Position numbers and translations under genes: made by a program
Notes under the pieces: generated by a model
Databases searched by the model: none
Seen by the model: the letters and a program-made list of their open reading frames with translations, nothing else
What the model was told of the DNA's origin: nothing
Shown here: positions 7,060-28,685 of the stretch, piece after piece
How positions within the stretch are numbered: position 1 is the first letter of the stretch
How the letters are laid out: each line of letters starts with the position of its first letter
Source of the DNA: Promethearchaeota archaeon
Lineage (GTDB): Archaea > Asgardarchaeota > Lokiarchaeia > Sigyniarchaeales > SOKP01
DNA: 64,000 nt
Direction of reading: 5' to 3'
Assembly: GCA_048939995.1 (NCBI GenBank)
Contig: JBHLOY010000005.1
Coordinates: 1 to 64,000, forward strand

Positions 7060-7164
7060 CGGGCTATGGGGGAATTTCAGAGCCATCCGAGATGGAAAAG
7101 CTTGTTCGAACCCCCGACCTTCAGGTTAAAAGCCTGCTGCGCTACCTGTCTGCGCTAATAGCCC
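7060..7164 (-). tRNA. tRNA-Lys(UUU) with 31-nt BHB intron at position 59/60 (7074-7104)
   Basis: Minus strand GGGCTAT TA GCGC..GCGC A GCAGG CT-TTT-AA CCTGA AGGTC GGGGG TTCGAA [intron] T CCCCC ATAGCCC G; central helix TTCG/TGAA, bulges AAC and ATT. Confidence 0.93.
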
Positions 7165-7284
7165 TAACAAAATCTTTTTTAAAGATAAATTATAAAATTT
7201 TAACTATAATTACAATTTTACAAATCTATAATAATATAAAATTTTTTCCGTGAAGTTTTTCCAAGGGATATCTACTTCTCCAAC

Positions 7285-8349: not shown

Positions 8350-8481
8350 GCCTCTGTGGCTTAGTGGTAGAGCAACTGATTCGTAATCAGTCGAATTGGA
8401 AATAATCCTTTCGGGAGAATAGGTCGGGGGTTCAAGAGAGTAAATCCCTTTCGGATGGCTCTGAAATTCCCCCCAGAGGCT
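8350..8481 (+). tRNA. tRNA-Thr(CGU) with a 29-nt insertion at about 43/44 (8392-8420) and a 31-nt BHB intron at 59/60 (8437-8467)
   Basis: GCCTCTG/CAGAGGC acceptor stem, ACTGA-TTCGTAA-TCAGT anticodon arm; strict BHB GGGGG TTCA AGA GAG...CTC TGAA ATT CCCCC. Confidence 0.9.
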
Positions 8482-20133: not shown

Positions 20134-20583
20134 TTGTTTATAATAATGAAAGAAGCAGGATTTGAATTTAAAGGACATACCGCGGATATAAAAGTGAGAA
20201 GTTGGGGTAGAACTTTAGAAGAAGCATTTGCACAAACTGCCTTGGGTTTAATGGCCATAATGAGTCCAGATTTAAAAAGGATCTCATCTACCATTCAAAA
20301 GAGTATTGAAATAACTTCAGAAGACATCTATGCTTTATTATTTGACTTTCTCTCTGAGTTTTTATATTTATTTGATGTAGACGGATTAATTTTTGGTGAT
20401 ATTATCGTTAATATAATGAAAAAAGAGCATAATGAATATTATTTACAAGCAATTATTAAAGGAGAGAAATTTGATCGCCACAAACATAAAATTGGGACTG
20501 AGGTTAAAGCAGTAACTTATTCATTTATGAATATAAAAGAAAAAAAAAATGAAGTTGAAATTGATATCATTTTTGATATCTAA
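20134..20583 (+). CDS. archease
   Basis: HTADI, G.TLEEAF, LLFDFLSEFL, EVKAVTY, terminal IFDI. Confidence 0.96.
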   Translation: MFIIMKEAGFEFKGHTADIKVRSWGRTLEEAFAQTALGLMAIMSPDLKRISSTIQKSIEITSEDIYALLFDFLSEFLYLFDVDGLIFGDIIVNIMKKEHNEYYLQAIIKGEKFDRHKHKIGTEVKAVTYSFMNIKEKKNEVEIDIIFDI

Positions 20584-20590
20584 ATGTGAA

Positions 20591-22063
20591 TTAGCCCTTT
20601 ACAACTCCTATTGGAACTAATCTTACTACTTTTTCAACAATATCTAAATCATGACTTACTTGAACAACTTGGTCAATGTCTTTATAGGCACCTGGAGCTT
20701 CTTCGGCAATAACTTTCATTGATGCGGCCTTAACTAAAATTCCTCGATTATAAAGATCTTCTCGTACAATGGAACCTCGGTATTTTGATATTGCTTTAGA
20801 TCTAGACATAACTCTTCCTGATCCATGAGCTGTGGACCCAAAAGAGAGTTCCATTGATTTAGGCTTTCCTACACATAGATATGATGCGCTTCCCATTGTG
20901 CCAGGAATCAATACTGGTTGTCCTAACTCTCTATAGTCTTGAGGAAGTACTGGATGTCCTGGTGGAAAAGCTCGAGTTGCACCCTTACGATGTACATTCA
21001 ATTTCACCTTTTTCCCATTTATTTCATGCTCTTCAATCTTTAGAATATTGTGACAAACTCCATATATTAAATGTAAATCTAAATCATTAAAACTCTTATT
21101 GAAATGTAGTTGGAACGCTTCTCGTAACCAATGAGTTATCAACTGACGATTAGCAAATCCAAAATTTGCGGCACAAGCCATTTGGCTAAGGTAATTTTGG
21201 GCTTCAGGAGTGTTTGCAGGAACGGAAGCTAATTCACGATCTGGAACCTTTATATTGTATTTCTTCATTGCCCGTTCTACATTACGTAATGAATCTGTGC
21301 ATACTTGATGCCCAAGAGCTCGAGATCCAGTATGGACCATGATCGTAATTTGATCCTTTTGGTGTATACCTAACTTTTTTGCTTTAGATTCATCAAAAAT
21401 TTCATCAACTTTCTGTATCTCAAGAAAATGATTACCACTCCCCAATGATCCAAGTTGTTTGAACCCTCTTTCCTTAGCTTTTTGAGAGACCAAGTTTGCA
21501 TTAGCATCTTTCAAACACCCCTTCTCTTCACAATGCTTAAGATCTTCTTCGATTGCATAGTTATTCTCTAATGTCCAATTCATTCCAGTATTTAACACAT
21601 TATCCAAATCTGAAAATTTAATATTTAGCTTCCCCTTAGAACCCAAACCCGACGGTATATTTTTGAAAATAGTATTTAATAAATGGGGTAAAGTGGTATT
21701 TATATCTTGAAGCATCAAATTTGTCCTTAATAACCTTACTCCACAATTAATATCATAACCAACACCCCCCGGTGATATCATCCCTGTTTCTGCATCTGTC
21801 CCAGCTACCCCTCCAATACAAAATCCATATCCTTGATGAGCATCTGAGAGTGCAATAACATGTTTTTCAACCCCGGTTAAACAAGCTACATTAGCAATTT
21901 GATCAAGAGTTCTATCCAATTTGATTTTCTCAAGAATGTATTCATTAGCATAAACATGCACTGGTACTTTCATTTGAAATTTCTCAATTCTTCCTTCCAC
22001 TCGAGCCATTAACGTTGTAGGTGGTATTTCGTATATATTGTCATCAATTTTATTCACATTCAT
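20591..22063 (-). CDS. rtcB: RNA-splicing ligase RtcB
   Basis: DAHQGYG, GYDINCG, GSGNHF, HNI, HRKGAT, AHGSGR, YKDI. Confidence 0.98.
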   Translation of the reverse strand: MNVNKIDDNIYEIPPTTLMARVEGRIEKFQMKVPVHVYANEYILEKIKLDRTLDQIANVACLTGVEKHVIALSDAHQGYGFCIGGVAGTDAETGMISPGGVGYDINCGVRLLRTNLMLQDINTTLPHLLNTIFKNIPSGLGSKGKLNIKFSDLDNVLNTGMNWTLENNYAIEEDLKHCEEKGCLKDANANLVSQKAKERGFKQLGSLGSGNHFLEIQKVDEIFDESKAKKLGIHQKDQITIMVHTGSRALGHQVCTDSLRNVERAMKKYNIKVPDRELASVPANTPEAQNYLSQMACAANFGFANRQLITHWLREAFQLHFNKSFNDLDLHLIYGVCHNILKIEEHEINGKKVKLNVHRKGATRAFPPGHPVLPQDYRELGQPVLIPGTMGSASYLCVGKPKSMELSFGSTAHGSGRVMSRSKAISKYRGSIVREDLYNRGILVKAASMKVIAEEAPGAYKDIDQVVQVSHDLDIVEKVVRLVPIGVVKG

Positions 22064-22202: not shown

Positions 22203-22958
22203 TTATTTTAGCTCGATAAATTTTAAAAGACCTAAATCATCTAAATCATCTATCATAACTTGAATCTCGCTTTCAGGTTTGCCACTTTCCTCAGCAATAT
22301 CGGAAATTGTATGAAAACCATCCGCTAAATGTGCTATTTTATACATTTCTTCATCCAAAAAACCTTGAGTTATTACCTGCGTTGGCAATCTTTTTGAAGT
22401 CCACTCGGGTTTCTGATTTTGAGATTGACGTAAATCTTCTTCAGAAATTATCAATCCTTTTTTCGTAATTTGCTTACGGGATTTAAGGAAATCCTTTTCA
22501 TAAATCTTTAAAATAGGTAACTTCATTTGAATTTCTGCTATCTTTCCATTCTGCAAAACTTCATCTATAATAGGCTCAAAATCTCTAAAAAGGCGAACAT
22601 CACCTCCCCAATTTTTAATAGTTTCGCCATGTACATTAATAAATTTATCAATAATATCGCTTAAGGCCTTATGAGTAATTTTAGCGTCGTCATTTTTATC
22701 AGCTGCAGCTGTACATAGTACACCCTCCTTAAAGACTAACAACAGATAAAAAATCTGCATATCTTTATTTATGAATAGATTCTATCCATAATCTATAATT
22801 TTGAGTTCCCCACTACCTTTTGAGAACTCAACACTAAAGTCTTTAAGGGCAGTTAAAAATCCCGAAACTAAATCTTGATTAAATTCAATACTTCCATATT
22901 TCCTATGAATTAAACAAATTCCCGTAAATTGGTCAATAAGGTAAAAATTGTGTAAAAT
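22203..22958 (-). CDS. longin-domain plus C-terminal winged-helix protein (about 241 aa after splicing); exon 1 22958-22793, exon 2 22762-22203; probable ATT start
   Basis: The frame of the 185-aa track ORF continues upstream as ILHNFYLIDQFTGICLIHRKYGSIEFNQDLVSGFLTALKDFSVEFSKGSGELKIID (longin-like), separated only by a 30-nt insert containing TAG. Confidence 0.85.
22763..22792 (-). other. putative 30-nt BHB-type intron in a protein-coding gene
   Basis: A-TTAT-AG^A-TTATGGATAG-AAT-CTATTCATAA-ATAA-AG^A-T: 4-bp helix, two AGA bulges, 10-bp inner stem; removal restores ATA GAT ATG. Confidence 0.82.
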
Positions 22959-23102
22959 AGCGTTTACTCAACTCCAGTTAAAAACATTATTAGTTGTATA
23001 TTAAATAAAATAATTCTAATATAAATTTCTTTATAACTTTAATCTTTATTCTTAAATCGCTTTTAATCATTTTTAAGTAAGAAATTAAATAAGATTTTAG
23101 TT

Positions 23103-23351: not shown

Positions 23352-23645
23352 TTATACAAAAGTATCTTTTAAAAGCCTTTTCAATTCATTTTTCTCTTTT
23401 AGAGATAGATATTTTAAATCTTTTCCTCTTTTTTCAAACCTGTCTAAAGGAAGATCTTCTATAAGGTTGAGTAATAGAATTAAACTATTCCTTACTAATA
23501 TAGTATCTTGAGTTGTATTTAAAAGGAACATGAGCTTTTTGAGTATCTTAGATATCCATAACATTTCATAACTATTATTTCGTGCCTTAGCATGCTCTCT
23601 AATGATCTTATTGTACCACCAGTCTTCATAATTACTATTCATCAA
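23352..23645 (-). CDS. hypothetical protein
   Basis: 97-aa ORF filling the gap between neighbours. Confidence 0.55.
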   Translation of the reverse strand: MMNSNYEDWWYNKIIREHAKARNNSYEMLWISKILKKLMFLLNTTQDTILVRNSLILLLNLIEDLPLDRFEKRGKDLKYLSLKEKNELKRLLKDTFV

Positions 23646-27611: not shown

Positions 27612-28685
27612 TTGAAGATTCTTGAAATAGATAATAAAAATCAAGAAGTCATTGTTAAAATTGAAACATTAAATGATTTATGGACCCTTTATAATATCAT
27701 TTCTAGAGATGATTATGTTTCTACGCGAACATCCAGAAGAGTTGTATTAAGAGAAGGCACTAAAGGAGAGAGAAAAAATATGTGGATAAAATTAAAGGTG
27801 GAATCTATTTCCTTTCATGAATTTTCAAATAGATTAAGAATTAAAGGTACAATTAGTGAAGGTCCTGAAGATTTTGTAAGTTTTGGAACATACCATACTT
27901 TCAATGTCGAAGTAGGTAATACATTAAATATTATAAAGGATAAGTGGCTTAGAAGTGAGATAAAAAGGCTGAAAGAGTCTTCTAAATTTGAAGCAAATTT
28001 TCTCATTATTATAACTGCTATCGAAACCGGATTAGCAAATTTAGCACTTATTACTAATTTTAGTCATACAAAGATAGCAACAATTAAAAGAACAATACCG
28101 GGAAAAAGATATGAACAAATCCATCGAAATAAAGCTTACGAAGATTTTTTTAATGATATTTATAATGTATTAGAAGAGAATATTAAAAATATGAATATAA
28201 ATCTAATTATCTTCTGCGGTCCCGGAAATAGTAAAGACAGGTTTTTAAATTACCTCAAAGAAAAGAAACAGCCAAATTTTCTCTCTAAAATCAGTATTAT
28301 TCATGCTAGTTCAGGAACCGAAAGTGCGATATTTGAGATATTAAAATCACCCCAATTAAAAGAATTAAAAGAAAAAGTAAAGATACTTCAAGAAACAGAG
28401 AAGATTGAGAACATTTTTAACATTTTAGCAACTAATCCAGATTTAATTGCTATTGGAATTAAAGAAATCGCTACATTATCTAAAAGTGGAATAATAGATG
28501 AATTATTTGTTGCAGATATTTTATTGAGAGGTACCTCAAAAGAAAAAAAAAATGAACTTGAAGGGGTTTTAACAGATGTGGAAAATTCCGGGGGAAAGTA
28601 TTACATTCTAAGTAGTGAACAACCTACTGGTCAGCAAATTATTGATTTAGGAGATATAGTAGCTATTTTGAGATATAAACCTTAA
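27612..28685 (+). CDS. pelA: mRNA surveillance protein Pelota (Dom34)
   Basis: DLWTLYNII, FHEFSNRLRIKG, GTYHT, PGKRY, GPG, AILRY. Confidence 0.96.
   Translation: MKILEIDNKNQEVIVKIETLNDLWTLYNIISRDDYVSTRTSRRVVLREGTKGERKNMWIKLKVESISFHEFSNRLRIKGTISEGPEDFVSFGTYHTFNVEVGNTLNIIKDKWLRSEIKRLKESSKFEANFLIIITAIETGLANLALITNFSHTKIATIKRTIPGKRYEQIHRNKAYEDFFNDIYNVLEENIKNMNINLIIFCGPGNSKDRFLNYLKEKKQPNFLSKISIIHASSGTESAIFEILKSPQLKELKEKVKILQETEKIENIFNILATNPDLIAIGIKEIATLSKSGIIDELFVADILLRGTSKEKKNELEGVLTDVENSGGKYYILSSEQPTGQQIIDLGDIVAILRYKP

What the first reader, a model, noticed from the sequence alone, without database searches (positions are those of the whole stretch)
22763..22792. tRNA-type (BHB) intron inside a protein-coding gene of an Asgard archaeon
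Seen: on the minus strand the frame reads ...GELKIID-YG*NLFINKD-MQIFYLLLV. The 30 nt ATTATGGATAGAATCTATTCATAAATAAAG fold with their flanks into a bulge-helix-bulge: central helix UUAU/AUAA, two 3-nt AGA bulges, inner 10-bp stem UUAUGGAUAG/CUAUUCAUAA with an AAU loop; the outer helix is weak (1 bp). Cutting after the second nucleotide of each bulge (the EndA rule) removes exactly the stop-containing insert and restores ATA GAT ATG, rejoining a longin domain. Known: BHB introns in archaeal mRNA are documented mainly for crenarchaeal cbf5, which is intronless here. Inference: this lineage splices mRNA of a eukaryotic-signature gene, and other apparently split Asgard genes may hide such introns.
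Basis: partly seen in the sequence, partly recalled or inferred. Interest (0 to 1): 0.95.

Follow-up and report, generated by a model that had tools for sequence, protein, structure and literature searches.

The report
tRNA-type intron in Asgard longin gene
A protein gene of an Asgard archaeon is broken by a 30-base insert shaped like the introns archaea cut out of tRNAs, and related genomes show it is almost certainly cut out of the messenger RNA, which the papers searched report inside a coding sequence for only one other archaeal gene (cbf5).

Summary
Confirmed. The 30-nt insert at 22792-22763 (-) carries an in-frame TAG and forms a canonical bulge-helix-bulge (BHB). Removing it by the EndA rule restores a 241-aa longin + winged-helix protein. 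Three independent assemblies carry it. Most orthologues read ELK[IV]IDMQ unbroken. Seventeen distinct 29-30-nt inserts at exactly this site pair in 192 of 204 BHB cells, with 18 two-sided changes. The same gene has a second BHB insert site upstream (28-37 nt, mostly frameshifting) and one site shifted by 2 nt. Exons of interrupted copies stay under strong purifying selection (pN/pS 0-0.06 upstream of the insert). In about 1.8 Mb aligned to a sister genome, all 4 ORF-breaking inserts of this genome are BHBs (EF-1alpha, fwdA, acyl-CoA dehydrogenase, this gene); five more were read by eye. An (alpha-beta)2-type EndA and RtcB/archease are encoded. No spliced RNA was found, so splicing is inferred (~0.93). 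It works like the crenarchaeal cbf5 mRNA intron, in a new phylum and many genes. This scan has noted the same phenomenon in other Asgard genomes, apparently including this gene (e1-5504701). I found no paper reporting it.

The parts
22968..22975 (-). Shine-Dalgarno-like GGAGTTGA
   Evidence: Sequence. Orthologues carry GGAGGTG-like motifs 5-11 nt before the codon aligned to the start. Function is inferred.
22956..22958 (-). Probable near-cognate start codon ATT
   Evidence: No ATG/GTG/TTG in frame after the upstream stop. At this codon 147 distinct orthologue sequences show ATC 38, ATT 37, TTG 34, ATG 13, GTT 6, GTG 5, ACG 4, TTT 4, ATA 3. Inferred.
22793..22958 (-). Exon 1 (codons 1-55 plus the first base of Asp56): longin beta1-beta2-alpha1-beta3
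   Evidence: 95% identical to the intronless G019 orthologue over the domain; pN/pS 0-0.06 among interrupted copies; secondary structure
22918..22919 (-). Second intron site of this gene (TG|ICL). Empty in this genome, filled by 28-37-nt BHB inserts in relatives
   Evidence: L003, L004, L015, L117/L178, L147, L304, L327, L328
22802..22830 (-). Exonic 9-bp hairpin (22830-22822 / 22810-22802) just 5' of the BHB
   Evidence: Fold. Synonymous codons here are shared among intron-bearing copies (GAG 11/11, AGT 11/11, CTC 9/11; intronless GAG 43/89, AGT 12/89, CTC 5/89). Role unknown.
22792..22798 (-). 5' strand of the BHB central helix (UUAU) and 5' bulge AG|A; cut between 22793 and 22792
   Evidence: Exon side reads TTATAG in 14/14 intron-bearing loci versus 3/93 intronless; L097 has TCAT with compensatory GTGA.
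22763..22792 (-). 30-nt BHB intron: 10-bp hairpin with AAU loop, in-frame TAG at 22784-22782
22762..22768 (-). 3' strand of the central helix (AUAA) and 3' bulge AG|A; cut between 22763 and 22762
22203..22762 (-). Exon 2: rest of the longin domain, helical linker and C-terminal winged helix. Gene callers annotate it alone as a 185-aa protein from the internal ATG at 22760
20591..22063 (-). rtcB, tRNA-splicing ligase, 140 nt downstream on the same strand
   Evidence: Pfam PF01139, E 1.2e-167
20134..20583 (+). Archease (RtcB cofactor), convergent to rtcB
   Evidence: Pfam PF01951, E 1.4e-42

Best explanation
The 30-nt insert is an EndA-type intron in a pre-mRNA. In the transcript, the last exon-1 bases (UUAU-AG) pair with the intron end (AUAA) to form a bulge-helix-bulge. 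The cell's heterotetrameric (alpha-beta)2 splicing endonuclease cuts after the second base of each bulge, and RtcB/archease joins the exons. The joined message encodes a 241-aa longin + winged-helix protein; unspliced message stops at TAG three codons into the insert. Shown here: the insert, the BHB, its covariation, restoration of the frame, purifying selection on both exons, and the presence of the enzymes. Inferred: cleavage, ligation and translation. The intron is most likely a tolerated passenger, one of at least nine in this genome, gained or lost repeatedly in the family, rather than a dedicated switch.
For: (1) Most orthologues are uninterrupted at this site: 24 of 29 in the genus sample, 93 of 107 distinct loci. 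(2) Seventeen distinct 29-30-nt inserts at the identical register pair in 192/204 cells over 12 BHB pairs, with 18 two-sided changes. Column shuffles give a mean of 174 cells and 4.5 changes, 0/5000 reach the observed values, and slid registers give 82-96/204 (sequences are related, so not independent). (3) The exon side of the helix is constrained only where the intron is present (TTATAG 14/14 vs 3/93), with a compensatory U-A to C-G change in L097. (4) A second site in the same gene holds 28-37-nt inserts, central helix 26/28 paired, 6 of the 7 frameshifting. The exon between the two sites still has pN/pS 0-0.03, and it could not be translated without splicing. (5) Versus sister genome G019 (~1.8 Mb aligned), 4/4 clean ORF-breaking inserts in this genome and 3/3 in G019 have a 4/4 central helix. 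Only 1 of 13 frame-preserving indels meets helix plus first inner pair. One interrupted gene is EF-1alpha, broken in its P-loop. (6) The EndA alpha subunit is closest to Aeropyrum pernix alpha (E 5e-37) and keeps the Tyr/His/Lys residues and the KPR loop; a second paralogue lacks the His, as a structural beta subunit would. RtcB and archease lie next door. (7) EndA splices cbf5 pre-mRNA (PMC2738675) and the HVO_1309 5' UTR (PMC7714728).
Against: No spliced transcript or junction-spanning protein of any intron-bearing lineage was found: best full-length identity 96%. The outer helix is 1 bp and the central helix is poorly populated in the energy model. An ATG follows the 3' splice site directly, so a 185-aa C-terminal product could be made without splicing.
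Confidence: 0.93

Rival explanations
1. Split gene without splicing. Exon 1 is made as a ~58-residue peptide, translation restarts at the ATG right after the insert, and the two halves reassemble or the C-terminal part works alone.
For: An ATG lies 2 nt after the 3' splice site; databases hold many 185-aa products.
Against: No ribosome-binding site precedes that ATG. The break falls between beta3 and beta4 of the longin sheet. The upstream site has no following start codon, yet the exon behind it is conserved. The reading does not explain BHB covariation or the same shape in EF-1alpha, MetRS and other genes.
Confidence: 0.03
2. Inert hairpin insertion or mini mobile element that has pseudogenised the gene, or a sequencing error.
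For: A 4-nt direct repeat (AGAT) flanks the insert in this genome, like a target-site duplication; distribution is patchy.
Against: The repeat is absent from most other inserts. There is no second copy in the genome. Three independent assemblies carry the insert. pN/pS is 0-0.06 upstream and 0.06-0.2 downstream between interrupted copies. About 19 genomes in five genera are interrupted.
Confidence: 0.02
3. Translational recoding: stop read-through, frameshifting or ribosome hopping over the hairpin.
For: The 30-nt insert keeps the frame and a stable hairpin could promote recoding.
Against: Inserts at the same site are 29, 30 or 31 nt and hold TAG, TAA or TGA. The inserted residues are not conserved. 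The pairing that is conserved spans exon and intron exactly as EndA needs.
Confidence: 0.02
4. Add-on to the best explanation: the intron is a regulatory switch that ties expression of this longin/winged-helix regulator to EndA/RtcB activity, loosely like RtcB-dependent XBP1 splicing in animals (from my own knowledge).
For: The gene sits directly upstream of rtcB, has attracted introns at two or three positions, and every in-frame insert seen keeps a stop codon. It also seems to use a near-cognate start codon.
Against: About 85% of orthologues have no intron. rtcB linkage is at least as common in intronless copies (67/76) as in interrupted ones (7/12). Similar introns sit in unrelated housekeeping genes.
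Confidence: 0.12

Closest known systems
BHB intron in cbf5 pre-mRNA of Crenarchaeota (Desulfurococcales, Sulfolobales; Yokobori et al. 2009, PMC2738675)
   Same: Short intron inside a coding sequence; BHB at the exon-intron border with cuts between bulge positions 2 and 3; heteromeric EndA; patchy gain and loss among relatives.
   Different: Different phylum (Promethearchaeota/Lokiarchaeia) and host gene. Two or three intron positions in one gene, with up to two introns per message. At least nine interrupted genes per genome rather than one. cbf5 itself is intact here. Splicing is shown by cDNA for cbf5 but only inferred here.
BHB intron in the 5' UTR of HVO_1309, Haloferax volcanii (Schwarz et al. 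2020, PMC7714728)
   Same: EndA substrate in an mRNA; short (46 nt) hairpin intron.
   Different: That intron is untranslated and does not restore a reading frame; this one must be removed to make the protein.
Non-canonical tRNA introns of Asgard archaea (bioRxiv 10.64898/2026.10.13.758758)
   Same: Same lineage, size range, BHB boundaries, repeated gains and (alpha-beta)2 EndA. This genome's tRNAs are heavily interrupted too.
   Different: That preprint covers tRNA only; the word mRNA does not occur in it.
Host protein: longin-domain proteins (AP sigma/mu, TRAPP, Sec22b, Mon1) and NPRL2/Npr2 of GATOR1/SEA
   Same: N-terminal longin fold followed by a winged helix; Npr2/NPRL2-containing complexes are the top, weak hits for the full-length model (E 1.5e-3 to 1e-2).
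   Different: Only 241 aa with one winged helix; sequence identity 9-21%; Pfam Longin below cut-off; roadblock folds score similarly. Orthology to NPRL2 is not shown.

Membership tests
EndA-spliced (BHB) archaeal intron | [quoted passage not shown] | tested here: met
   UUAU/AUAA with AGA/AGA bulges; central helix paired 68/68 in 17 variants
EndA-spliced (BHB) archaeal intron | Intron-side helix flanking the motif | tested here: met
   10-bp stem, pair probability 0.73-1.0; covariation
EndA-spliced (BHB) archaeal intron | Exon-side (outer) helix | tested here: inconclusive
   Only 1 bp here; first outer pair formed in 11/12 site-2 variants and 2/5 site-1 variants. This is a relaxed form; PMC2738675 describes most cbf5 BHBs as unconventional too.
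EndA-spliced (BHB) archaeal intron | Cuts after the second base of each bulge restore the functional sequence | tested here: met
   Restores IIDMQ as in intronless orthologues, for all 18 site-2 and 7 site-1 variants
EndA-spliced (BHB) archaeal intron | Genome encodes EndA and an RNA ligase | tested here: met
   Two EndA paralogues, alpha with Tyr/His/Lys; rtcB and archease
EndA-spliced (BHB) archaeal intron | Spliced RNA or excised circle detected; cleavage by EndA | not testable with these tools
   No reads available; no junction-spanning near-identical contig or protein in the collections
cbf5 mRNA intron | Located in the catalytic Asp codon of cbf5 | tested here: not met
   Host is a longin/wHTH gene; cbf5 in the window is intact
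Homing-endonuclease-carrying archaeal intron / group I or II intron | Encodes an ORF or a ribozyme core (hundreds of nt) | tested here: not met
   All inserts seen are 28-37 nt; no Rfam hit here
MITE / palindromic mobile element | Multiple dispersed copies with conserved target-site duplication | tested here: not met
   Single copy in the genome; the repeat is not conserved
Longin domain | beta-beta-alpha-beta-beta-beta-alpha-alpha fold | tested here: met
   Model pLDDT 90.9 with that order; TM 0.6-0.75 to Sec22b, TRAPP, AP sigma, Mon1
Longin domain | Pfam PF13774 above gathering score | tested here: not met
   16.9 bits versus cut-off 26.2

The most novel reading that the evidence does not exclude
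Lokiarchaeia routinely splice multi-exon mRNAs with the tRNA machinery, and this longin/winged-helix gene next to rtcB is not just a passenger but a splicing-gated regulator (near-cognate start, repeated intron gain, retained stop), an archaeal counterpart of RtcB-dependent XBP1/HAC1-type regulated splicing. The routine-splicing half is likely (~0.9); the regulatory half is what sets the low probability.
Probability: 0.12. Interest if true: 0.93.

Novelty: new variant of a known kind. Interest (0 to 1): 0.8.

Why it matters
In the papers I could search, EndA splicing inside an archaeal coding sequence is confirmed for one gene, cbf5. Here the closest archaeal relatives of eukaryotes appear to need it for many genes, including EF-1alpha and MetRS, and some relatives carry two introns in this one message. 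That would make mRNA introns a normal feature of this lineage before spliceosomal introns existed, and gives a tractable system for watching intron gain, loss and sliding. It also means Asgard annotations truncate such genes: this protein is stored as a 185-aa fragment lacking half its longin domain in many records, so inventories of eukaryotic signature proteins can undercount. The claim is directly testable by RT-PCR or in vitro EndA assays.

Tried and rejected
(1) A strict intrinsic BHB + ORF-restoration scan ranked this site first of 74 and suggested it was the only mRNA intron. That was wrong: the filters missed introns with bulged inner stems or other bulge letters. (2) Plain blastn/tblastn gap lists were too noisy. 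The mismatch column was mis-computed and was replaced. (3) Searches for RNA-derived spliced copies found nothing above 96% identity; this is absence of data, not evidence against. (4) No further mRNA intron was found in the 64-kb window; the candidate at ~38150 (+) is an ordinary junction of two overlapping genes. (5) The full-length AlphaFold model was low-confidence (pLDDT 60); only the domain model is relied on. (6) A link to rtcB adjacency was not supported. (8) Eight literature searches found no report of mRNA BHB introns in Asgard archaea; the library lacks most subscription journals.

Full report
Observation. On the minus strand the frame runs …GELKIID-YG*NLFINKD-MQIFYLLLV…, and deleting 22792-22763 gives one open frame from about 22958 to the stop at 22203. 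The insert and flanks form a canonical bulge-helix-bulge (BHB): UUAU/AUAA, two AGA bulges, a 10-bp inner stem with an AAU loop, and a single outer pair. The hairpin is stable (z -3.6), but the central helix is weak in the energy model (probability 0.01-0.14; BHB fold 0.9-4 kcal/mol above the MFE). BHB shapes are common by chance in this 30% GC genome (about 1,700 with an inner stem of 10 bp or more), so the shape alone proves nothing. Three independent assemblies of near-identical strains carry the insert, differing only at an unpaired bulge base, which excludes an assembly error.

Organism and distribution. The closest relatives are Promethearchaeota (Lokiarchaeia) MAGs. Of 29 orthologues from the genus, 24 read ELK[IV]IDM[QR] without a break and 5 carry an insert at exactly this point. 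Across the family, 19 of roughly 125 genomes with an orthologue show stops or a split in this domain, in five genera; I read the DNA for two genera and several metagenome contigs. On the gene tree the five interrupted copies are scattered, and starred branches force at least three gains or losses.

The inserts behave like selected RNA structures. Seventeen distinct 29-30-nt inserts at this site pair in 192 of 204 cells over the 4 central and 8 inner pairs, with 18 two-sided changes. Column shuffles give 174 and 4.5 (0 of 5000 reach the observed values) and slid registers give 82-96 (the sequences are related, so this overstates). The exon side is constrained only where an intron is present: TTATAG in 14 of 14 interrupted loci against 3 of 93 intronless ones. 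One copy has the compensated helix TCAT/GTGA. One contig has a 31-nt BHB insert cut 2 nt further on (L327). The same gene has a second site, 126 nt upstream in the spliced frame, with seven listed inserts of 28-37 nt (central helix 26 of 28 paired) and an eighth in L304. Several genomes carry both, giving three exons. Every in-frame insert contains a stop, and the others shift the frame.

The gene is alive. Between interrupted copies, pN/pS is 0-0.06 for the part upstream of the intron and 0.06-0.2 downstream; the exon trapped between two introns has 0-0.03. The break lies between strands 3 and 4 of a confidently modelled longin domain (pLDDT 90.9; hits to AP sigma/mu, TRAPP, Mon1, Sec22b and roadblock proteins). 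The 185-aa product from the internal ATG, which is what databases hold, would therefore lack half the fold. The C-terminus is a winged helix. The full-length model weakly recalls Npr2/NPRL2; I treat that as a lead only.

It is not alone in the genome. Comparing about 1.8 Mb with sister genome G019 gave four clean ORF-breaking inserts in this genome (this gene, EF-1alpha in its P-loop, fwdA, an acyl-CoA dehydrogenase) and three in G019 (two small-GTPase-like genes and one other). All seven are 29-33 nt with a full 4-bp central helix, while only 1 of 13 frame-preserving indels meets helix plus first inner pair. Five more in this genome lie outside the compared part: MetRS (found) and MoxR, PAC2, uL11 and dnaG (leads from earlier notes). 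I read their BHBs and restored motifs directly but without an orthologue test. So this genome has at least nine, probably more. The machinery is present: an EndA alpha subunit closest to Aeropyrum pernix, with Tyr/His/Lys and the KPR loop, a second paralogue lacking the His, and rtcB plus archease directly downstream of this gene. Many tRNAs of the genome also carry introns.

Mechanism. Most likely (0.93) EndA cuts the precursor after the second base of each bulge, RtcB joins the exons, and a 241-aa protein is translated, probably from an ATT codon behind GGAGTTGA. Cleavage, ligation and translation are inferred: no spliced contig or junction-spanning protein from an intron-bearing lineage exists in the collections I could query. 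Re-initiation, recoding and pseudogene readings fail on the frameshifting variants, the second site, the covariation and the selection on exons. How the intron spreads is open. Synonymous identity among interrupted copies is raised for about 120 nt around the site (0.62-0.76 versus 0.44-0.56 in divergence-matched intronless pairs), which fits either lateral transfer of the patch or selection on an exonic hairpin next to the BHB. A regulatory role is possible but unsupported, since rtcB linkage is as common without the intron.

Comparison with what is known. It works like the cbf5 pre-mRNA intron of Crenarchaeota (PMC2738675, which says introns in other protein genes had only been predicted) and the HVO_1309 5' UTR intron (PMC7714728, which calls cbf5 the only other example). 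It meets every sequence-testable feature of an EndA intron except a strong outer helix. A 2026 preprint on Asgard introns covers tRNA only. I found no paper on mRNA BHB introns in Asgard archaea, within a library that lacks most subscription journals. This scan has noted the phenomenon many times on other DNA, including a two-intron longin gene beside rtcB that appears to be this gene; one note reports RNA evidence for another gene, which I did not check.

Verdict. This is a new variant of a known kind; interest 0.8.

Noticed in passing
G000 C11 (-) 167345-167313: EF-1alpha is broken by a 33-nt stop-containing BHB insert inside the GHIDHGKST P-loop; absent in G019.
   Followed up: partly
G000 C6(+) 82172-82203; C7(+) 20329-20358 and 27864-27892; C23(-) 129234-129198 and 175447-175418; C17(+) 23476-23508; C11(-) about 487250-487217: Further 29-37-nt BHB inserts breaking MetRS (HIGH-motif region), a MoxR ATPase, PAC2, uL11, fwdA, an acyl-CoA dehydrogenase and dnaG.
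   Followed up: partly
G019 C7(-) 54413, C27(-) 15318, C28(-) 21577: The sister genome has its own BHB inserts, in two small-GTPase-like genes and a third gene, absent from G000.
   Followed up: partly
window 22956-22958 (-): The gene seems to start at ATT; across 147 orthologue sequences this codon is mostly ATC, ATT, TTG, ATG, GTG, ACG or ATA, pointing to conserved near-cognate initiation.
   Followed up: partly
window about 7061-7165 (-) and 8351-8480 (+): A tRNA with UUU anticodon and one with CGU anticodon, both missed by ARAGORN, carry T-loop inserts that end in the same 14 bases (CGGATGGCTCTGAA), suggesting copying between tRNA genes; the second tRNA also has an insert after the anticodon arm.
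   Followed up: no
window 20134-22063: rtcB and archease are adjacent and convergent, 7 nt apart, directly downstream of the intron-bearing gene.
   Followed up: partly
L327:540-600: A 31-nt BHB insert whose cut lies 2 nt downstream of the common site: intron sliding or an independent gain.
   Followed up: partly
P0270 (ENA ERZ23498365; DNA not held): A distant homologue (47% identity) also ends right after SGDLKVI, with the next gene called 27 nt later: possibly an intron at the homologous position.
   Followed up: no
window 22802-22830 (-): An exonic hairpin next to the BHB; its synonymous codons are shared among intron-bearing copies.
   Followed up: partly
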